A stretch of DNA of 64,000 bases from an uncultured cyanobacterium (GTDB lineage Bacteria; Cyanobacteriota; Cyanobacteriia; Cyanobacteriales; CAWUOF01). Positions 1 through 57,350 of the stretch are shown here, one piece after another; position 1 is the stretch's first letter, and each line of letters opens with the position of its first letter. Position numbers and translations under genes: made by a program. The notes under the pieces are model-generated. The model worked only from the letters and a program-made list of their open reading frames with translations. It was not told the origin of the DNA and ran no database searches. Location: positions 3,136,001 to 3,200,000 of the forward strand of contig CAVUSO010000001.1 of NCBI GenBank assembly GCA_963744145.1. Reading direction: 5' to 3'.

Positions 1-96
1 CAAAGTTGTAGTATGTGTGTAATATATTAGTTATGGAAAGGACACCTAGACCTGGACAACTTAATCAGCAACTAGAAATATAAAATAATAAGTTAA

Positions 97-315
<219 letters not shown>

Positions 316-368
316 TATAATTATCCTCTATACCCAGAGATAAAGCTTACAGATATTGACCAGATTTT

Positions 369-499
369 TCACTTCGCGCCCTGACAAAAAAAGCTTACAT
401 ACTAGCCGAATTGGTACAGGCACTTGAATTCTAAATCAAGCGATTGCAGGTTCAAATCCTGCGTATAAGCAAACAGCTTTTTTAACTTGCGTGAAGTGA
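369..499 (+). ncRNA. tRNA-like structured RNA enclosed in a long closing stem (Y RNA-like candidate)
   Basis: D arm GCC405-407/GGC419-421 with GG loop. Stem CTTGA/TCAAG 423-440 with 8-nt loop. T arm GCAGG-TTCAAAT-CCTGC 446-462. Bulged acceptor GCTTA(CA)TAC/GTATAAGC. Outer stem TCACTTCGCGC 369-379 / GCGTGAAGTGA 489-499, followed by a T-run. Directly upstream of a Ro60-like gene. Confidence 0.7.
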
Positions 500-526
500 T
501 TTTTTTTGGGGTAAAGTGTCAATAAT

Positions 527-615
527 GGCAGTTAAGTCGCACCCTCATCGGTAAAGCTAATCTAGCTTGATCACCAACTTGTGCGGAGATCTATCATTTG
601 TGTGCGAAAACTGCC
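527..615 (+). ncRNA. Second structured RNA candidate (Y RNA-like, or 5' leader of the vWA gene)
   Basis: GGCAGTT 527-533 pairs with AACTGCC 609-615. TCGCAC 537-542 pairs with GTGCGA 602-607. Inner hairpin AAGCTA-ATC-TAGCTT. Confidence 0.45.
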
Positions 616-646
616 TCCTGAAAACTCCACAATCAAGGGGAGGTAG

Positions 647-2086
<1,440 letters not shown>

Positions 2087-2090
2087 ATGT

Positions 2091-2114
2091 TTGGGTGAAA
2101 TTAATTTCACCCAA
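2091..2114. terminator. 24-bp perfect palindrome (hairpin, possible terminator or processing signal)
   Basis: TTGGGTGAAATTAATTTCACCCAA immediately after the vWA stop codon. Confidence 0.45.
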
Positions 2115-2169
2115 CATTATTTTATGATTAGTGCTAGTTATCTCCCTTGGGGGTGCTATAATCATAATT

Positions 2170-2724
2170 ATGGACAATCCTCGGTTAGTAAAAATTAGCA
2201 AATATCTGAGCAAACATCTCCGACATCAACCTGAGCAAATTGGACTGGTCCTAGGAGTAGGTGGTTGGGTTTCTGTCGAAGAACTTCTGAGTGCTTGTGA
2301 AAAACACTCCTTTCCTATTACCCGTTTAGAATTAGATGAAGTAGTTGTAAATAATGATAAAAAACGGTTTTCTTTTGATGCTACTAACACTCAGATTCGC
2401 GCTAACCAAGGTCATAGTATCGAAATTGATTTACAATTAGAGCCAGCTATACCTCCAGCTATATTGTATCATGGTACAAGTGATCAGGTCGTACCATCAA
2501 TTTTAGACCAAGGTATTGGCAAAATGTCGCGCCATCATGTACATTTATCTACAGAAATTTCGATCGCACGAAATGTAGGTGCAAGACACGGTCGTCCGGT
2601 TGTTTTCGCGGTAGATACAGCCAAAATGCACCAAGATGGTTATATATTTTATTGTTCTGACAATGGAGTTTGGTTAGTTGATCACGTACCTGCTGAATAT
2701 TTACAAAAGATTGATCTAATTTAG
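2170..2724 (+). CDS. kptA: RNA 2'-phosphotransferase (Tpt1/KptA)
   Basis: SKYLSKHLRH, DKKRF, IRANQGHS, LYHGT, RHHVHLS, NGVWL motifs. Confidence 0.95.
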   Translation: MDNPRLVKISKYLSKHLRHQPEQIGLVLGVGGWVSVEELLSACEKHSFPITRLELDEVVVNNDKKRFSFDATNTQIRANQGHSIEIDLQLEPAIPPAILYHGTSDQVVPSILDQGIGKMSRHHVHLSTEISIARNVGARHGRPVVFAVDTAKMHQDGYIFYCSDNGVWLVDHVPAEYLQKIDLI

Positions 2725-2767
2725 CAATAAATTTTAAAACTTTTTTCGCAACAAAAAGGATATAATT

Positions 2768-3974
2768 ATGGGTTCAGGATCTTTTTGGAACGATGATTCT
2801 ACCGGACAAAATAATGTCCAAAGTCGAGGTTTACTCGCATCAGGTTGGAGACCATTATCACGACAGATTGATTTATCATTCCTGTTGCATTTAGCTACTA
2901 ACGATACCTGGGAATTAACACAAAAAACTCTAGATTTAGCGAGTGATATTGCAGATGCGATCGGACGTTCGAGATTATACTTGGTGGGCTAACATTTTAA
3001 ATATATTTTCCGAAAATACTCGCTATGAAATAGATGAATTTTGGAATTATATTACTCCCGAACCACCTGCACCTGATGAACAATTTAAAGATGTTTTAAG
3101 TATTGAAACTCCTACTGTGCAAATCGTTAGTCGTGATAGTATTCCGATTGATTATGTTTTGAATCGTCTCCGGGAAATTATTGTCATGAAAGTTCTAGAT
3201 TTATTAGGACGTCCAGAATTAATTACCCAAGACTATCTAGAACGACATTTCTATTATCCCGTCGAACGATTTCTCAATTGGGAAAGAATGGAAGCGATCG
3301 GTACAGTTTACGCTTATTGGTCACAGCATCAAGTTTGGTTGCAAATTAATAGTTCTGGAAGAGGAAGAAGACGTTATACTCTCATCGCTAAGGATATTGC
3401 ACCTTTAGTGAATAAATCAACCTATAATCTAGCAGTCATGTTGAGTGGTTATCAAAGTCGGGTTGGTCAGGTGCAAAGTCAGTTTCCGATTCGGACTTTT
3501 CCTAAAGATATTCAAAATTTTACTGATATTGTTCAACAAGCTATTATTGATCAAAATCAGTTAGCTGTGTTAGTACATGGAGATCCAGGAACAGGAAAAA
3601 CTGCATGGACTCAAGCAGTAGCAAAAGAAATTTTGATGCCCTTAGGATATGTTATTTTTATCTTAGATCATGATGCGGTCGAAAATTTTGTCCCCCAAAA
3701 TTATTTGCAACGGGTTTGTCTGATTATTAATGAAGCAGATAATTTAGCTCAAGATCGATCTACTGAAGTTGCTCAACGTAGTAGTAAAACTGAACATATT
3801 TTGAGTTTGCTAGATGGAACTTTATATCAGAGTGTAGTTGATGAAAATGGGTTACAATCAGAGCAAAGATTAGTAGTATTGATGACTTGTAATACTACAG
3901 AAAGGTTAGATCCAGCAGTTTTACGCAAGGGACGGGTTGATTTGATGTATGAATTTACCGAAAAGTTTATCTAG
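2768..3974 (+). CDS. AAA+ ATPase, split by a 1-nt frameshift near 2968
   Basis: ORFs 2768-2992 and 2943-3974 join (ADAIGR/RDYTWWAN). Walker A GDPGTGKT, Walker B-like IINEAD, SRH TCNTTERLDPAVLRKGRVD. Confidence 0.8.
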
Positions 3975-3995: not shown

Positions 3996-4832
3996 ATGCT
4001 TAAGATTGAGCAGTTACTTCACCAAATTGCTACCCAAGAAAAAGAATTTTGTGCTACCCAATTTCTAGCTCCATCAGTGGTCGGAGGAAAGGTGCGATCG
4101 CGAGTATCAGGTCTGATCTATACTTTTACAATTAAACCCCAGCAATTTACTGGTTGGGGAATATTTCAACCTCTGAATTCTACCGTAGCTGAGTTGGTTA
4201 CTGAAGCAGATTTACCCCAGATTGCTGAATATATGCAATATATGTCACCCATGCGTTTTTGGTTAGCTTATGCTTTACAAAAAAACACTTGGCTCGCATA
4301 TCCAATTAATGAATCTGATGCTCAACAACGTTTTGGTATTACTAAACCAGTTCCGATCCATTTAGTCAGTAATGGTGCAGTTTTTGAACAAATTATTGCC
4401 CGATGGGATGGAGGTAATTGGTGGTTTGAAGATTATGATCGTCGAGCTGATCCTTTTTTATCAGAAAACCTGACAACCGCTTTAAAAGAAATTACTCTAC
4501 CAGCTAAACTTCGGTTTAAAGGAATGACACCAGAAATGAAAATAGTTTATCAGTTGGTAACCCAGCAACAAGCAGAATTTAAAGCCAAAATGGAGTTACA
4601 AACTGATGCAGAAAAACTTGCTCAAGCATTAAAATTAGGTGGAGGAGAATTACAAAAATTTCGCGATCGCGATGATTACTGGGTCGTAGAGTGGACTACT
4701 GGATATGGAGAACATCATACCAGTGCGATCGCTAAAAGTGACCTAACTGTAATCAGTGCAGGAATTTGTCTAAGTGGACTAGATCGAGATTTTGATTTAT
4801 CATCTTTAGTGGGTGTCGTGGAATCTCGATAG
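3996..4832 (+). CDS. Hypothetical protein with a C-terminal E2/UBC-like GICL cysteine motif
   Basis: 278-aa ORF in the operon. C-terminal SAGICLSGLDRDFDLSSLV. The E2 assignment is an inference. Confidence 0.55.
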   Translation: MLKIEQLLHQIATQEKEFCATQFLAPSVVGGKVRSRVSGLIYTFTIKPQQFTGWGIFQPLNSTVAELVTEADLPQIAEYMQYMSPMRFWLAYALQKNTWLAYPINESDAQQRFGITKPVPIHLVSNGAVFEQIIARWDGGNWWFEDYDRRADPFLSENLTTALKEITLPAKLRFKGMTPEMKIVYQLVTQQQAEFKAKMELQTDAEKLAQALKLGGGELQKFRDRDDYWVVEWTTGYGEHHTSAIAKSDLTVISAGICLSGLDRDFDLSSLVGVVESR

Positions 4833-4844
4833 CTGGTGATCATC

Positions 4845-4978
4845 CAATACGGTTCAGTTAAGGATATTTTGGGAGATCTGGTGAGAAGAAGGGTGAAGCA
4901 TTCGGATATAATATTATTCGTTTAAGTGATAAATTATCGCCCGAATGCTTCACCCCTACAGTTAACTTAACTATATTG
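4845..4978. mobile_element. MITE, 134 bp, with 10-bp target-site duplication
   Basis: TIRs CAATACGGTTCAGTTAA / TTAACTTAACTATATTG. Flanking GGTGATCATC at 4835-4844 and 4979-4988. Internal palindrome GGGTGAAGCATTCGG...CCGAATGCTTCACCC. Confidence 0.85.
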
Positions 4979-5017
4979 GGTGATCATCTGGTTTTGTTCC
5001 CTCAATAATTAAAGTAA

Positions 5018-5653
5018 ATGTCTATATTCTTCCATGAACAACTCTATCGAACTCAACCAGTCATGGTGCAATTAACAAATTTTGCTGTGACTGTTTGTGG
5101 TGCTGGTGCGATCGGAGCTAACCTGACCGAAAGTTTAGCTCGATCGGGTTTAGCAAAATTAAAAGTAATTGATCGCGATCGCATTGAAGAACGTAATTTG
5201 TCAACTCAACCTTATTATCGAGCTGATGTTGGTGCTTGCAAAGCCAAAATATTAGCTCATCATCTTTATCGTGCTTTAGGAGTAAAAATTGAGGGTCAAT
5301 CTCAAGAATTAACTCCTAAAAATGTCAAAGAATTATTAAAAAATAGTGACTTAGTTATTGATTCCTTTGATAATAGTATCGGACGTCAAATAGTTAAAGA
5401 TTATTGTTTAGCAGCAAATCTTCCTTGTTTGCACATCGGATTAGCTAGTGACTATGGGGAAATTATCTGGAACAATTCTTATCGCGTTCCTTCTGGAGCT
5501 AATGATGATATTTGTGATTATCCATTAGCGAGAAATTTAGTCATGCTTACCGTTGCGATCGCAGCTGAAGTAATTATTAAGTTTATTGCTACTGGTAAAC
5601 AAGAGAGTTTTACTATTACCTTAGCAGATTTTGGGATTCAACAGTTTCATTAA
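5018..5653 (+). CDS. ThiF/MoeB/E1-like adenylyltransferase
   Basis: GAGAIG, DRDRIEERNLSTQ, K-A-K, DSFDN motifs. Lacks the CxxC Zn pairs. Single Cys in DDICDY. Confidence 0.9.
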   Translation: MSIFFHEQLYRTQPVMVQLTNFAVTVCGAGAIGANLTESLARSGLAKLKVIDRDRIEERNLSTQPYYRADVGACKAKILAHHLYRALGVKIEGQSQELTPKNVKELLKNSDLVIDSFDNSIGRQIVKDYCLAANLPCLHIGLASDYGEIIWNNSYRVPSGANDDICDYPLARNLVMLTVAIAAEVIIKFIATGKQESFTITLADFGIQQFH

Positions 5654-9426: not shown

Positions 9427-9659
9427 AGATAATTGGCTACCAGAATTAAGCTTGAATGGGTGGGCATTAATTAATCGTGTATTTAATGGTCATTTGATTA
9501 GGCTAAGTACACAATATTAGGATAAGTTACTACAACTTTCTCTAATACTTCTACCGCAAGAAGTTGGGGATTGTCACCTACTACGAATGAGGATATACCT
9601 ACTCAAAACATATCCAGCGTTACTTTTGTACCAGTTTGGGAAAAAGTCTTTCCGATTGC

Positions 9660-9805
9660 AGGTCAAAGTTTTACCCCATCCGATCAGACCCTCAGCAGTC
9701 ACAGAGGTGCTTAACACTACTAACAGTCATATTCGACGATTACAGAAATTTTCCCATGACCAACAACCCGATCCACTTTTGATTTATGATGACAACTACC
9801 AATAA
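9660..9805 (+). pseudogene. Tyrosine recombinase C-terminal remnant
   Basis: LPHPIRPSAVTEVLNTTNSHIRRLQKFSH...LLIYDDN parallels SPHRIRHSSIAAALDSTNGDIRRVQKF...LIYDDNR at 53038-53230. Confidence 0.6.
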
Positions 9806-9963
9806 ATCAGTTGAAAATATCTAGGTTAATTGCTAGATTAGTTTAGGCACCATTAAGCTAGTTTAGTAATAATAATCCGCTCCTATTTATAACCCAGATA
9901 TATTGAGACCTTTAATCAAAGCAGGTATTCCTTTAAATTTAGCGCAAAATATTAAAACTGTTT

Positions 9964-52901: not shown

Positions 52902-53037
52902 ATAAATGAATAATTTATTATATAATACAGCCGCACGATCAACATACTACAGTCAAGAAAAATGATTTGCTGGCGATCACATGACCAATTAGTCCAGCTT
53001 AGTTTTTGCACTGTCCAGATAACGACTACGCGATCAC

Positions 53038-55962: not shown

Positions 55963-56361
55963 ATGACTAAAATCAATAAAAATACTATAGATTCGGTTCG
56001 TGATCTATTTATTAGAGGGACTCGATATATTAGTGGTATAAAATTAAAAGTAGCGCAATTAGTCTCTGGTATTGAAACACAGCGACTAGCCCGCAATTAT
56101 CAAGTAGAACGGGTGTTGCGTTGGTATGAAAAACAGGGTGACGCGCTAGTTGGCGAAAAAGTGTTGAGTAACATAGAATTGTCCGAACTTCAACAACTAT
56201 TTGATCAACCATTAGATAATTTGATGTATGAGTGTTATTTGGTGACAGACGAGCAAGTGAATTATCTTCAGGAAAGGCTAAACCAAACCTTTGATCTGCA
56301 ATCCTATGAATATTTTGTAGACTGTGATGTAGTATGCGAGCTAAACCAACCCAGCAATTAA
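55963..56361 (+). CDS. Hypothetical protein resembling colicin E3/cloacin immunity protein
   Basis: LRWYEK..D.LVGE...CYLV...V.YLQ......D....EYFV pattern. Confidence 0.5.
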   Translation: MTKINKNTIDSVRDLFIRGTRYISGIKLKVAQLVSGIETQRLARNYQVERVLRWYEKQGDALVGEKVLSNIELSELQQLFDQPLDNLMYECYLVTDEQVNYLQERLNQTFDLQSYEYFVDCDVVCELNQPSN

Positions 56362-57252: not shown

Positions 57253-57326
57253 GGCGAGCGTAGCCAAGTGGTTAAGGCAGTGGATTGTGGTTCCACCACT
57301 CGCGGGTTCGAGTCCCGTCGTTCGCC
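57253..57326 (+). tRNA. trnH: tRNA-His(GTG)
   Basis: G-1, acceptor GCGAGCG/CGTTCGC, anticodon loop TTGTGGT, GGTTCGAGTCC, C discriminator, CCA not encoded. Confidence 0.96.
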
Positions 57327-57350
57327 CTTATTAATGGGGATCATCTTTTT

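What the first reader, a model, noticed from the sequence alone, without database searches (positions are those of the whole stretch)
369..499. tRNA mimic with non-canonical acceptor and 8-nt loop nested in a long closing stem upstream of the Ro60-like gene
Seen: canonical U8-A9, D arm and T arm (GGTTCAAATCC) in normal tRNA order. The acceptor pairs only with a 2-nt bulge (GCTTA-CA-TAC/GTATAAGC). The anticodon loop is ATTCTAAA, which reads CUA (amber) if A428 is bulged. The whole is enclosed by an 11-bp stem (369-379/489-499), and an alternative AAAAAAGCT/AGCTTTTTT pairing competes with the acceptor. Established: bacterial Y RNAs lie next to Ro genes and YrlA mimics tRNA, as I recall in a permuted arm order. 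Inference: this is a different Y-RNA-like architecture, possibly a decoy or sensor for anticodon nucleases or a substrate for KptA.
Basis: partly seen in the sequence, partly recalled or inferred. Interest (0 to 1): 0.85.

Follow-up and report, generated by a model that had tools for sequence, protein, structure and literature searches.

The report
Stem-clamped tRNA mimic beside Ro60-like gene
A tRNA-shaped RNA held in a conserved two-part closing stem sits just upstream of a divergent Ro60-like gene in many filamentous cyanobacteria, and it is probably a new kind of bacterial Y RNA that is switched on when translation is under stress.

Summary
Window 369-499 (+) is a tRNA-shaped core (ARAGORN tRNA-???, 4-nt anticodon; Rfam tRNA 38.9 bits) inside an 11-bp outer stem.

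It is not a strain-specific decayed tRNA. 105 of 120 ARAGORN hits upstream of the orthologous gene in 80 cyanobacterial loci share the same 5' start. 109 distinct copies share one architecture:
- P1;
- an internal loop, CCCUAAC on one strand and (R)ACUU on the other;
- P2;
- the tRNA-like core.

93% of cells are paired, 19 of 41 pairs show compensatory changes, and slid controls give 35-52%. The bulged acceptor is window-specific.

The 477-aa vWA protein downstream has a predicted Ro60 fold (Foldseek E ~1e-11). A TrcR-type tandem operator lies at window 6-25.

The same stem ("handle") also encloses other cargo, and a mini-copy sits in the Ro60-like gene's leader (window 529-594). U33 is fixed while anticodon positions 34-36 vary about as fast as synonymous sites or faster.

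Best reading, at about 0.5: a Y-RNA analogue of a translational-stress regulon. It is not a YrlA member: arm order and the Ro-binding motif both fail. The KptA link is weak (10 of 80 loci). Ro binding, the transcript and the decoy idea are untested.

The parts
6..25 (+). Tandem 9-nt repeats, TTGTAGTAT then gt then GTGTAATAT: candidate TrcR operator overlapping a TAGTAT -10 box. Likely promoter of the whole cluster.
   Evidence: Sequence. TGTAGTAT is the footprinted TrcR site of the trn operon (PMC10272220 section 9). Tandem repeats over the -10 box and TSS confer translational-stress induction (PMC8421152 section 22). In the 80 loci the 8-mer lies almost only on the + strand, often as pairs 11 nt apart, upstream of the first RNA module.
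115..315 (+). Small conserved ORF of 66 aa ending ...RPEAVYG. Predicted beta-grasp (ubiquitin-like) fold.
   Evidence: tblastn finds it in 67 of 80 loci, always upstream on the same strand. 55 distinct sequences. AF2 pLDDT 88.8 with b-b-a-b-b topology. The top Foldseek hits are ubiquitin-like domains, but only at E 0.3-1.
369..379 (+). P1, 5' strand of the outer stem (the handle).
   Evidence: Pairs with 489-499. 7 of 11 pairs show double-sided changes across 109 copies.
380..386 (+). 5' side of the conserved internal loop: CCCUAAC-type, CCUGACA in the window.
   Evidence: C380, C381 and A384 are invariant in A2. The loop recurs in modules with other cargo.
387..395 (+). P2, 5' strand (AAAAAAGCU).
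   Evidence: Pairs with 475-483. 98% of cells are paired and 4 of 9 pairs have double-sided changes.
396..470 (+). tRNA-like core: acceptor-like stem 396-402/463-469 (5 of 7 pair here), U8-A9, D arm, anticodon arm, 5-nt variable region, T arm.
   Evidence: ARAGORN, Rfam tRNA and CM R1 at 136.4 bits. The D, anticodon and T stems have 2, 3 and 3 pairs with compensatory changes.
428..435 (+). 8-nt anticodon-like loop AUUCUAAA. Most relatives have 7 nt.
   Evidence: In close relatives U33 never differs, while positions 34-36 differ at 27-57% of comparisons.
475..483 (+). P2, 3' strand (AGCUUUUUU).
484..488 (+). 3' side of the internal loop (AACUU).
   Evidence: A485, C486 and U487 are invariant in A2. 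This is partly imposed by the pattern used to pick the copies.
489..499 (+). P1, 3' strand.
500..507 (+). T8 run after P1. Possible 3'-end or terminator signal, specific to this copy.
   Evidence: Sequence. Only 9 of 109 copies have a T run of 5 or more within 12 nt after P1. The terminator scan finds none because the loop is too large.
529..594 (+). Mini-module: the same handle (P1 537-542/581-586, CCCUCAU loop, P2 about 550-558/564-572) capped by a 5-nt loop, with no tRNA core.
   Evidence: CM R1 gives 11.9 bits, E 0.51 in the window, which is weak. Orthologous modules of about 90 nt at 19-43 bits lie 55-110 nt upstream of the vWA start in other loci.
599..642 (+). Leader elements. 599-614 can pair with 528-541, using the same bases as the mini-module's P1 5' strand. 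Anti-SD CUCCU (615-619) pairs with the SD region (638-642).
   Evidence: RNAalifold consensus on 22 leaders. The two alternatives are 96.5% and 97.7% paired, with 5 and 9 pairs showing double-sided changes.
653..2086 (+). Ro60-like protein: a helical-repeat ring followed by a vWA domain, 477 aa.
   Evidence: Pfam finds only a weak VWA_2 match. PDB sequence search gives TROVE proteins at E 0.087. AF2 pLDDT is 75.6. Foldseek ranks 1-11 are all Ro60/Rsr/TROVE entries, E 1e-11 to 9e-10, TM 0.54-0.64, 484-544 aligned columns.
2131..2724 (+). KptA/Tpt1 RNA 2'-phosphotransferase, an accessory gene that is not a constant partner.
   Evidence: Pfam PTS_2-RNA 2.6e-52 and NCBIfam equivalog 271 bits. Present in 10 of 80 loci.
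3996..5653 (+). Conserved pair: a 278-aa protein of unknown family (3996-4832) and a ThiF/E1-like adenylyltransferase (5018-5653).
   Evidence: Found in 63 and 58 of 80 loci, downstream. ThiF 5e-27. PADLOC E1-E2 models match at the domain level only. The protein atlas gives no usable hit for the 278-aa protein.

Best explanation
Window 369-499 encodes a structured non-coding RNA of a family that is conserved across filamentous cyanobacteria. I found no Rfam family for it and no description in print.

The RNA has two parts.
- A 'handle': P1, a conserved asymmetric internal loop (CCCUAAC on the 5' side, (R)ACUU on the 3' side) and P2.
- A 'head': a nearly complete tRNA in normal arm order. P2 stacks directly under the acceptor-like stem, so the place of the CCA end is a 5-7-nt bulge.

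Proposed mechanism:
1. When translation is impaired, the repressor TrcR leaves the tandem operator at window 6-25. The cluster is then transcribed: small ubiquitin-like ORF, RNA, Ro60-like gene and downstream genes.
2. The handle is the docking site for the co-encoded Ro60-like ring protein, playing the role of a Y-RNA stem.
3. The tRNA-like head presents a tRNA shape, with a free anticodon arm, to tRNA-recognising partners such as repair enzymes, nucleases or the ribosome. The particle would thereby be directed to damaged tRNA or rRNA.
4. A head-less copy of the handle in the Ro60-like gene's own leader lets the protein feed back on its own translation.

Shown: the structure, its conservation and covariation, strand and position linkage to the Ro60-like gene, the operator motif, and the modularity of the handle.

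Inferred: transcription and RNA ends, binding by the Ro60-like protein, the partners of the head, and autoregulation.
For: tRNA-like core.

Family:
- ARAGORN finds 120 tRNA-type hits within 3.5 kb upstream of the orthologous gene in 80 loci, all on its strand. 105 of the 120 begin TAC[AG]TA[CT]T.
- 68 of the 74 loci with more than 700 nt of upstream sequence have at least one.

Architecture and covariation, from 109 distinct copies:
- 93.2% of cells are paired. 19 of 41 pairs have double-sided changes. 0 of 500 shuffles reach this, and slid controls give 34.8-52.5%.
- G-U pairs are frequent in P1 (for example 28, 26 and 26 copies at three pairs), which fits RNA-level pairing on the + strand.

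The handle is a unit of its own:
- CM R1 gives 396 hits at E<=0.01 in 82 loci, and the 300 listed are all on the + strand. About 117 are full tRNA-like members above 95 bits.
- Many hits of 66-235 nt match both ends of the model around other cargo.
- A strict pattern-plus-pairing scan finds 152 modules on the forward strand and 0 on the reverse in 945 kb.

Ro60-like partner. The gene is present in all 80 loci by construction, and the RNA lies 183 nt upstream in the window.

Handle in the partner's leader.

Stress regulon:
- The TGTAGTAT operator is at window 7-14, with a second near-repeat 11 nt on. The same motif sits on the + strand upstream of the modules in most loci.
- Its function is shown experimentally in Anabaena (PMC10272220 sections 7-9; PMC8421152 section 22).
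- Some ~206-nt handle modules start 23-27 nt after a TGTAGTAT box, as expected for primary transcripts that begin at P1.

Precedent: bacterial Y RNAs are encoded within 4 kb of Ro60 orthologues on the same strand and carry tRNA-like domains (PMC4201824, passages).
Against: - No binding, transcript or RNA-end data exist for this family in anything I could search.
- The Ro-binding motif of known bacterial Y RNAs (GNCGAAN0-1G near the 5' end) is absent: 0 of 109 copies have it in the first 40 nt.
- Rfam Y-RNA-type models give no match, even at E<=10.
- The partner is called Ro60-like only from a predicted model of moderate confidence (pLDDT 75.6). Pfam TROVE does not match.
- 10 of the 12 plasmid records with the RNA carry it inside long tRNA arrays, with no Ro60-like gene on the same plasmid at E<=1e-20. 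The RNA is therefore not strictly tied in cis to the protein and could be processed like its tRNA neighbours.
- The handle could equally be a processing or stability signal.
- Alignment A2 was collected with a pattern that fixes parts of P2, the acceptor start and the 3' loop side. Invariance there is partly by construction.
- The copies are related, so the counts are not independent events.
Confidence: 0.5

Rival explanations
1. It is a precursor of a working tRNA, an 'operonic' tRNA of the stress-induced L-array type. The handle is a leader-trailer duplex that serves only for excision or stability. After RNase P cleavage, 3' trimming and CCA addition, the RNA is charged and decodes. In this copy it would perhaps decode UAG, or a 4-base codon through the 8-nt loop.
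For: - The core passes ARAGORN and the Rfam tRNA threshold.
- Tertiary-interaction positions (U8, A14, G18G19, the T-loop UUCAAAU, A15/U48) are present in the sequence.
- U33 never varies and position 37 stays a purine in the 7-nt loops.
- Many copies have a full 7-bp acceptor stem.
- The Nostoc PCC 7524 plasmid copy sits between genuine tRNA genes of an L-array.
- 21 distinct Nostocales subtype-1 copies keep a CUCUAAA (CUA) loop.
- 23 of 26 trn-operon tRNAs of Anabaena are charged in vivo (PMC8421152, passage).
Against: - Anticodon loops of 4, 6, 7 and 8 nt occur within the family.
- Positions 34-36 change between near-identical copies at 0.39 per site, against 0.19 at 4-fold sites of the neighbouring gene. 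This does not fit a fixed decoding identity.
- The same handle encloses cargo that is not tRNA-like, and it also sits in an mRNA leader.
- P2 abuts position 1 with no single-stranded leader.
- Position 1 is U paired with G or A.
- The window copy pairs only 5 of 7 acceptor positions.
- True tRNAs in the same arrays lack a convincing handle.
Confidence: 0.15
2. The head is a bait or decoy for anticodon nucleases, which is the reader's idea and a special case of the main model. Stress-induced or invading tRNases such as VapC-type enzymes would bind or cut the exposed anticodon loop. That would either spare the real tRNAs or produce a cleaved RNA that signals to the repair genes. Different copies would offer different anticodons.
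For: - Among 117 close pairs of subtype-2 copies, loop positions 32 and 34-38 differ at 27-57% of comparisons and U33 at 0%. Other unpaired sites differ at 0.7%.
- Positions 34-36 diverge about twice as fast as 4-fold degenerate sites of the adjacent gene: 0.390 against 0.191.
- Loci carry one to three full tRNA-like copies, usually one or two, and these can differ in anticodon.
- In Anabaena, VapC genes are induced late in translational stress, and operonic but not housekeeping tRNAs are cleaved (PMC8421152 section 24).
- A decoy role has been proposed for YrlA (PMC7790460, passage).
Against: - In subtype 1 the excess over synonymous sites is small (0.266 against 0.206).
- The sequence pairs are phylogenetically dependent, and 4-fold sites may be constrained. 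Neutral drift of an unconstrained triplet is therefore not excluded.
- Two copies have a 4-nt loop (L065, L066).
- No nuclease is linked to the locus.
- PADLOC finds no known defence system.
- There is no match in the phage collection.
Confidence: 0.15
3. The functional unit is only the handle. It would be a repeated cis element, such as a processing site for a double-strand- or loop-specific RNase, a stabiliser, or a protein operator. The tRNA-like insert would be a passenger derived from array tRNAs with no role of its own.
For: - The handle occurs around many different cargos, and without any cargo in the vWA leader.
- Several modules stand in tandem within one locus, for example six in L006.
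- The window copy has a weakened acceptor stem and an odd 8-nt loop.
Against: - The tRNA core is kept from Nostocales to Oscillatoriales. Compensatory changes are seen in the D, anticodon and T stems (2 of 4, 3 of 5 and 3 of 5 pairs).
- Among close relatives only 0.7% of comparisons differ at unpaired sites outside the anticodon loop. That is purifying selection on the head itself.
- The 5' acceptor strand UACAUAC is near-invariant even in ARAGORN hits that were collected without any pattern.
Confidence: 0.12
4. It is a substrate or guide for the neighbouring KptA/Tpt1 RNA 2'-phosphotransferase.
For: KptA lies two genes downstream in the window. From general knowledge, not tested here, Tpt1 acts on the 2'-phosphate left at the splice junction in the tRNA anticodon loop.
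Against: KptA, with a 74-aa ORF and an AAA ATPase, is present in only 10, 9 and 9 of the 80 loci. It appears as an insert between the Ro60-like gene and the conserved 278-aa/ThiF pair. The RNA family is present in 70 of 74 loci with enough upstream sequence.
Confidence: 0.05

Closest known systems
YrlA-type bacterial Y RNAs (Salmonella, Mycobacterium; Chen et al. 2014, PMC4201824)
   Same: Encoded close to a Ro60-type gene and on the same strand. The 5' and 3' ends form a long stem. The rest mimics tRNA, with D and T arms and elbow contacts. There are several paralogous RNAs per locus, some lacking the full tRNA-like part (compare YrlB). The operon is linked to RNA repair and tRNA damage.
   Different: The arm order is normal here (acceptor, D, anticodon, T), not T, acceptor-like loop, D. 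A complete anticodon arm is present. The GNCGAAN0-1G motif is absent (0 of 109 copies). There is no Rfam match apart from tRNA. The handle has its own conserved internal loop. The protein partner is so divergent that Pfam TROVE misses it. Regulation is by a TrcR-type operator rather than RtcR.
Deinococcus radiodurans Yrn1 (as described in PMC4201824)
   Same: By that paper's text, the T-like and D-like elements have the orientation opposite to YrlA. A 5-bp 'anticodon arm' with a 6-nt loop lies between them, and the Ro-binding stem is formed by the RNA ends. That is the same topology as here.
   Different: Per the paper, Yrn1 lacks a clear D arm and a variable region. Here the whole cloverleaf is kept and scores as tRNA. 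I made no sequence comparison with Yrn1, because no copy was at hand and Rfam gave no hit.
Operonic tRNAs of cyanobacterial L-arrays (trn operon; PMC8421152, PMC10272220)
   Same: The same operator motif and the same genomic neighbourhood. Some family members lie inside L-arrays on plasmids. The subtypes look derived from array tRNAs. A few subtype-2 copies still carry a long variable arm.
   Different: The RNA is enclosed by the handle and has a conserved non-G 5' start. Anticodon loop length and sequence are variable. Genuine array tRNAs show no convincing handle.
tmRNA and other tRNA-like domains (general knowledge)
   Same: An acceptor/T-arm mimic embedded in a larger RNA.
   Different: tmRNA lacks an anticodon arm and has a free, chargeable CCA end. 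Here the anticodon arm is present and the acceptor end is closed by P2. ARAGORN reports no tmRNA.

Membership tests
tRNA (Rfam RF00005) | Cloverleaf scoring at or above the curated gathering score | tested here: met
   38.9 bits against a gathering score of 29, model positions 4-67 of 71. ARAGORN also detects it.
tRNA (Rfam RF00005) | 7-nt anticodon loop with a 3-nt anticodon | tested here: not met
   The window copy has an 8-nt loop and ARAGORN gives a 4-nt anticodon, tcta. Relatives have loops of 4, 6, 7 or 8 nt.
tRNA (Rfam RF00005) | 7-bp acceptor stem with a free 3' end for CCA and charging | tested here: inconclusive
   5 of 7 positions pair in the window, and many relatives pair all 7. 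The 5' end continues directly into P2, and the 3' side is a 5-7-nt bulge before P2. Processing and charging cannot be tested with these tools.
YrlA-type Y RNA | Match to curated Y-RNA or YrlA covariance models | tested here: not met
   cmscan of window 1-3500 against all 4227 Rfam families at E<=10 lists only tRNA and four chance-level hits.
YrlA-type Y RNA | Encoded within 4 kb of the Ro60 orthologue on the same strand (criterion used in PMC4201824) | tested here: met
   The RNA lies 183 nt upstream on the same strand. All 120 ARAGORN hits within 3.5 kb upstream in the 80 loci are on the same strand.
YrlA-type Y RNA | GNCGAAN0-1G motif near the 5' end (proposed Ro contact) | tested here: not met
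   0 of 109 copies have it in the first 40 nt. 17 of 109 have a chance match in the D arm.
YrlA-type Y RNA | Permuted order: T arm, acceptor-like stem-loop, D arm | tested here: not met
   The order here is normal. The YrlA order is taken from PMC4201824.
Y RNA (functional class) | Long stem formed by the 5' and 3' ends, plus a separate effector module | tested here: met
   P1 and P2 with covariation, enclosing the tRNA-like module.
Y RNA (functional class) | Bound by a Ro60 protein | not testable with these tools
   Needs RIP, CLIP or EMSA. The complex predictor offered takes no RNA.
Ro60/TROVE proteins (for the neighbouring gene) | TROVE helical-repeat ring followed by a vWA domain | tested here: inconclusive
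   The predicted fold matches Ro60/Rsr over the full length (E 1e-11, TM about 0.6). Pfam TROVE does not match, and the best PDB sequence E-value is 0.087.
TrcR / translational-stress regulon (Anabaena) | Tandem 9-nt repeats containing TGTAGTAT over the -10 box and TSS | tested here: met
   Window 6-25. The motif is enriched on the + strand upstream of the modules in the loci. This is motif evidence only. In the window the 8-mer also occurs at three other places.
Intrinsic terminator | Short GC-rich hairpin followed by a U run | tested here: not met
   The scan finds none in 1-700. The 'loop' would be 109 nt. A T run of 5 or more follows P1 in only 9 of 109 copies.

The most novel reading that the evidence does not exclude
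The handle is a portable docking module for a divergent Ro60-like ring protein. Filamentous cyanobacteria would use it to display a small, fast-evolving repertoire of tRNA anticodon arms, and other tRNA fragments, during translational stress. These would act as baits or decoys for anticodon nucleases, or as selectors that bring particular damaged tRNAs to repair. The same handle in the protein's own leader would set the dose. That would be an RNA-display arm of a stress or defence response with no described counterpart.
Probability: 0.15. Interest if true: 0.88.

Novelty: new variant of a known kind. Interest (0 to 1): 0.75.

Why it matters
Bacterial Y RNAs are known from few experimental systems, and their tRNA-like domains have no established partner. 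This family offers a second, independently evolved design.
- It keeps a whole tRNA, anticodon arm included, on a conserved handle.
- It sits beside a Ro60-like protein that current annotation calls only 'vWA domain-containing'.

It also ties the Ro/Y-RNA theme to an experimentally tractable regulon: the TrcR-controlled translational-stress response and the long tRNA arrays of cyanobacteria. Inducing conditions, mutants and tRNA-cleavage phenotypes already exist there.

The modular handle is a clean target for binding and structure work. It appears with a full tRNA-like head, with partial heads, with no head, and in the partner gene's leader. That range could show what a Ro-type ring recognises and what the tRNA mimic is for.

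Tried and rejected
- **Rfam at a permissive threshold**: nothing but tRNA. The reverse-strand Plastid-ycf2 hit (24.6 bits against a gathering score of 65.7) is the tRNA seen backwards.
- **Terminator and promoter scans of 1-700**: no terminator. The two promoter-like sites are no more than shuffles give.
- **PADLOC**: only generic E1 and AAA domain matches, and no defence system.
- **Protein atlas for the 278-aa protein**: no usable hit.
- **Phage collection**: no match to the RNA.
- **Handles around genuine tRNAs**: CM hits that seemed to show this (L081 8815-8933, L056 1637-1769) turned out to be forced global alignments with many non-pairs. I rejected them.
- **MITE-like DNA inverted repeat**: rejected because of the strict strand bias (152 against 0), the frequent G-U pairs and the compensatory changes.
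- **Archaeal-type bulge-helix-bulge splice site**: rejected. The handle has one asymmetric internal loop, not two 3-nt bulges 4 bp apart.
- **Is Anabaena all4315 the Ro60-like gene?** PMC8421152 reports all4315 as a repeat-bearing, stress-induced gene linked to arrays. The cluster look-up showed no PCC 7120 member, so this stays open.
- **My first 3'-end pattern was wrong** (too long by 1-2 nt). I corrected it.
- **Paper searches for a prior description** and the supplement of PMC8421152 gave none.
- **Recalled papers**: Burroughs and Aravind's 2016 survey of RNA repair systems and Puerto-Galan and Vioque's 2012 paper on the Anabaena tRNA cluster are recalled only. They were not in the library listings, so they may hold relevant remarks that I could not see.
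Full report
**1. What is in the window**

Positions 396-470 (+) are called a tRNA of undetermined identity with a 4-base anticodon (tcta) by ARAGORN. Rfam's tRNA model matches 399-466 at 38.9 bits, above its gathering score of 29. The alignment places:
- U8-A9 at 403-404;
- the D stem at 405-408/418-421;
- the anticodon stem at 423-427/436-440, with the 8-nt loop AUUCUAAA;
- a 5-nt variable region;
- the T arm at 446-450/458-462, with the loop UUCAAAU.

The outer stem 369-379/489-499 has 11 pairs, one of them G-U, and is followed by eight T. The 151-nt stretch folds with z = -4.38 against dinucleotide shuffles, and 0 of 200 shuffles fold as well. A permissive Rfam search of 1-3500 (E<=10) shows no Y-RNA family, only tRNA.

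**2. The neighbours**

| Window | Product | Evidence |
|---|---|---|
| 653-2086 | 477-aa protein, only a weak vWA match | |
| 2131-2724 | KptA/Tpt1 | |
| 2768-2992 | 74-aa ORF | |
| 2943-3974 | AAA ATPase | |
| 3996-4832 | 278-aa protein, no family | |
| 5018-5653 | ThiF/E1-like protein | |

The 477-aa protein has thousands of relatives. 3135 proteins reach E<=0.001 among 8000 scored candidates. The best 120 are 71-77% identical, and those that carry a name are cyanobacterial and are annotated only as 'vWA domain-containing' or 'hypothetical'.

Sequence search of the PDB gives only E 0.087, to two 'TROVE domain' chains. An AlphaFold model built on 24 homologues (pLDDT 75.6) is matched by Foldseek first to Ro60/TROVE entries. 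These include Xenopus Ro, D. radiodurans Rsr, human Ro60 and a Thermus phage Ro60. All of ranks 1-11 are such entries, at E 1.1e-11 to 9e-10, TM 0.54-0.64 and 484-544 aligned columns. vWA-only hits follow from E 1.8e-5. 'Ro60-like' is thus supported by predicted fold, not by sequence families.

**3. It is a family, not a decayed local tRNA**

80 loci were kept.
- ARAGORN on these loci finds 191 tRNA-type genes, none on the opposite strand.
- 120 lie within 3.5 kb upstream of the Ro60-like gene, and 105 of those begin TAC[AG]TA[CT]T, like the window's copy.
- 68 of the 74 loci with more than 700 nt of upstream sequence have at least one.

Two subtypes exist, with a D arm of class-I type or of Leu-like type. 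The window's copy is subtype 2. A few subtype-2 copies still carry a long variable arm.

Reading the flanks shows that every copy has the same surroundings:
- P1;
- the 5' loop side CCCUAAC;
- P2, ending in AAGCU;
- the core, starting UACAUAC;
- a 5-7-nt bulge;
- P2', starting AGCUU;
- the 3' loop side (R)ACUU;
- P1'.

**4. Covariation**

109 distinct copies were aligned as A2. 112 had been collected, three were exact duplicates, and one locus copy was skipped for lack of the 3' pattern.

For the six-helix structure:
- 93.2% of 4330 cells are standard pairs;
- 19 of 41 pairs show changes on both sides;
- no shuffle of 500 reaches the observed values;
- sliding the 3' partners by 1-3 columns drops pairing to 34.8-52.5%.

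| Helix | Pairs with double-sided changes |
|---|---|
| P1 | 7 of 11 |
| P2 | 4 of 9 |
| D stem | 2 of 4 |
| Anticodon stem | 3 of 5 |
| T stem | 3 of 5 |
| Acceptor | 0 of 7 (the 5' strand hardly varies) |

Caveats:
- The copies were collected with a pattern that fixes part of P2, the acceptor start and ACUUG. Invariance there is partly imposed.
- The copies are related, so cells are not independent events.
- About 30 Nostocales subtype-1 rows are shifted by one base in P1 in the MAFFT alignment, which lowers the apparent pairing.

The bulged acceptor has no counterpart in the other copies.

**5. The handle is modular**

A covariance model of A2 (R1) finds the window copy at 136.4 bits, the window's real tRNA-His through its core only, and a weak full-length match at 529-594 (11.9 bits, E 0.51). 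In that last match the 77 core positions are replaced by a 5-nt loop.

Over 82 loci it gives 396 hits at E<=0.01, and the 300 listed are all on the + strand. About 117 are full members above 95 bits. Many hits of 66-235 nt align to both ends of the model around different cargo: an anticodon arm plus T arm without a D arm, T-arm-like pieces, and inserts of about 128, 146, 158 or 200 nt. Up to six modules stand in tandem, as in L006.

A separate scan needs the two loop motifs, at least 8 P1 pairs and at least 6 P2 pairs. It finds 152 modules on the forward strand and none on the reverse in 945 kb. Apparent handles around genuine array tRNAs are alignment artefacts.

**6. A handle in the partner's leader**

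A mini-module of about 90 nt lies 55-110 nt before the start codon of the Ro60-like gene in nearly all loci. It consists of the handle plus a short UACAUAA...UUAUA hairpin. It is present even in loci with less than 400 nt of upstream sequence, at 19-43 bits. L033, with 193 nt upstream, shows none. The window's 529-594 is the orthologous, more reduced copy.

In 22 aligned leaders RNAalifold predicts two things:
- a long-range helix that uses the 5' strand of the mini-module's P1 (window 528-541 with 599-614);
- an anti-SD/SD hairpin (615-619 with 638-642).

Both the P1 state and the long-range state are compatible with the sequences. They are 96.5% and 97.7% paired, with 5 and 9 pairs showing double-sided changes (coordinates). 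This looks like a switch. The set is small and closely related, so I rate it as suggestive only.

**7. Regulation and context**

The window starts with TTGTAGTAT, then gt, then GTGTAATAT (6-25). TGTAGTAT is the footprinted TrcR site that overlaps the -10 box of the Anabaena trn operon (PMC10272220, sections 7-9 read). Two tandem 9-nt repeats over the -10 box and TSS are sufficient for translational-stress induction (PMC8421152, section 22 read).

In the loci the 8-mer occurs 168 times. It lies overwhelmingly on the + strand, often as pairs 11 or 41 nt apart, upstream of the first module. Some ~206-nt modules begin 23-27 nt after a box. In the window the 8-mer also occurs at 56328 (+) and at 3892 and 52944 (-), so a single match is not significant by itself.

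Synteny over the 80 loci:

| Gene | Loci with a hit |
|---|---|
| 66-aa ORF | 67 |
| 278-aa protein | 63 |
| ThiF-like protein | 58 |
| 241-aa protein | 47 |
| 153-aa protein | 35 |
| GNAT | 32 |
| L7/L12 paralogue | 18 |
| DUF6847 | 18 |
| KptA | 10 |
| AAA ATPase | 9 |
| 74-aa ORF | 9 |

Several loci are cut by contig ends, so these are lower bounds.

On plasmids the RNA matches 12 cyanobacterial records.
- In two of them, Kovacikia and Dolichospermum, the Ro60-like gene follows the RNA.
- The other ten match the query only over its inner part. In the one I opened (Nostoc PCC 7524), the copy sits inside an L-array, after tRNA-Asp, Glu, Met and Trp and behind an HNH gene and operator-like repeats. 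It has a different but complementary P1.

No phage record matches.

**8. The anticodon loop**

Loop lengths are 4 nt (two copies), 6, 7 (most) and 8 (the window). The table gives the fraction of comparisons that differ among 117 close pairs of subtype-2 copies, defined as at most 6 differences outside the anticodon arm.

| Site class | Fraction differing |
|---|---|
| Paired sites | 0.036 |
| Unpaired sites elsewhere | 0.007 |
| Position 33 | 0 |
| Position 32 | 0.27 |
| Position 34 | 0.57 |
| Position 35 | 0.33 |
| Position 36 | 0.27 |
| Position 37 | 0.27 |
| Position 38 | 0.38 |

For the same locus pairs, positions 34-36 differ at 0.390 per site against 0.191 at 4-fold sites of the Ro60-like gene. 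In subtype 1 the figures are 0.266 against 0.206. The triplet is therefore unconstrained or diversifying, while the U-turn nucleotide is fixed and the rest of the head is under strong constraint. 21 distinct subtype-1 copies, those of the Nostocales-type loci, keep a CUA loop. The pairs are not independent, so I do not claim positive selection.

**9. How it most likely works**

Shown:
- a conserved, strand-specific, covarying RNA made of a handle and a tRNA-like head;
- tight linkage to a gene whose predicted fold is Ro60;
- the handle alone in that gene's leader;
- an operator motif of the translational-stress regulon.

Inferred:
- TrcR derepression transcribes the cluster.
- The Ro60-like ring binds the handle, as Ro60 binds the Y-RNA stem.
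- The head recruits the particle to tRNA-recognising partners, or competes with tRNAs for them.
- The leader handle gives feedback.

I put this at about 0.5. The rivals are a real tRNA precursor (0.15), a nuclease bait or decoy as the specific role of the head (0.15), a handle-only cis element with a passenger tRNA (0.12) and a KptA substrate (0.05). Their tests are listed in the respective fields.

**10. Comparison with what is known**

It works like a bacterial Y RNA but is not a YrlA member.
- The arm order is normal rather than permuted (PMC4201824, passages).
- The GNCGAAN0-1G motif is absent (0 of 109).
- Rfam gives no hit.

Its topology resembles what that paper describes for D. radiodurans Yrn1, but with a complete cloverleaf. 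It shares operator and neighbourhood with operonic L-array tRNAs but differs from them by the handle.

Eight paper searches and the supplement of PMC8421152 gave no description of this RNA, nor of the protein as Ro60-like. Figures of PMC8421152 (Fig. 6A, B) could show these genes but are not held as text.

**11. Limits**

- Only 80 of at least 575 loci were examined.
- The window is cut 368 nt upstream of the RNA, so further modules upstream cannot be excluded. The operator at 6-25 does suggest that the cluster starts there.
- No expression or binding data were available.

**Verdict**

A real, conserved and apparently undescribed RNA family. It is most likely a new architectural variant of the Ro/Y-RNA system, wired into the cyanobacterial translational-stress response.

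Noticed in passing
window 6-25: Tandem 9-nt repeats, TTGTAGTAT then gt then GTGTAATAT. They match the TrcR operator and -10 box described for the Anabaena trn operon, and they place this cluster in the translational-stress regulon by motif.
   Followed up: yes
window 115-315: A 66-aa ORF, highly conserved (29 invariant residues in 25 sequences), always ending RPEAVYG. Its predicted beta-grasp fold, together with the ThiF/E1-like gene downstream, hints at a ubiquitin-like conjugation module. Fold matches to ubiquitin-like domains are weak (E 0.3-1).
   Followed up: partly
window 526-655: The leader of the Ro60-like gene holds a head-less copy of the handle, a mutually exclusive long-range helix and an anti-SD/SD hairpin. 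This is a possible protein-responsive translational switch.
   Followed up: partly
window 2131-3974: KptA, a 74-aa ORF and an AAA ATPase form an insert between the Ro60-like gene and the 278-aa/ThiF pair. The insert is found in only 9-10 of 80 related loci.
   Followed up: yes
window 3996-5653; for example L024 9076-10565: A 278-aa protein of no known family always travels with a short ThiF/E1-like protein (63 and 58 of 80 loci). In several loci the pair is preceded by a TGTAGTAT box followed directly by a ~206-nt handle module (for example L015 9618 then 9641-9845).
   Followed up: partly
L016 5340-5732, L012 4613-4999: A paralogue of ribosomal protein L7/L12 lies between the tRNA-like RNA and the Ro60-like gene in 18 of 80 loci. 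A GNAT acetyltransferase lies upstream in 32 of 80 loci. A GNAT gene (all0768) is the most derepressed gene in the Anabaena trcR mutant, but I did not compare the two.
   Followed up: partly
L024 about 3888-3930, and the same place in other Nostocales loci: Directly after the subtype-1 RNA comes a conserved hairpin (GTGTGAGTGTAACTCTCAC...) followed by AGGGAGGGTATCGGTTCAAT. It has no explanation so far.
   Followed up: no
L023, L035, L042, L049, L062 (first 1.7 kb); L081 6682-9336: Long arrays of ordinary tRNA genes (7-20 genes) lie upstream of, or around, the handle RNAs on the same strand. This links the locus to the horizontally spread L-arrays.
   Followed up: partly
L019, L020, L047, L052, L055, L070, L076 leaders (the last ~100 nt before the vWA start): Runs of AATC(C/T)AAAAT-type heptamer-like repeats are inserted between the anti-SD and the SD in some Nostoc leaders. 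They lengthen the loop of the SD hairpin.
   Followed up: no
window 56316-56335 (+) and 52944-52951 (-): Further TGTAGTAT words. The first has a related TGTAGACT 12 nt upstream, inside or at the end of a 132-aa ORF. These may be chance matches or further operator sites.
   Followed up: no
window 57254-57327: An ordinary tRNA-His (GUG) at 59.5 bits in Rfam, with no handle.
   Followed up: yes
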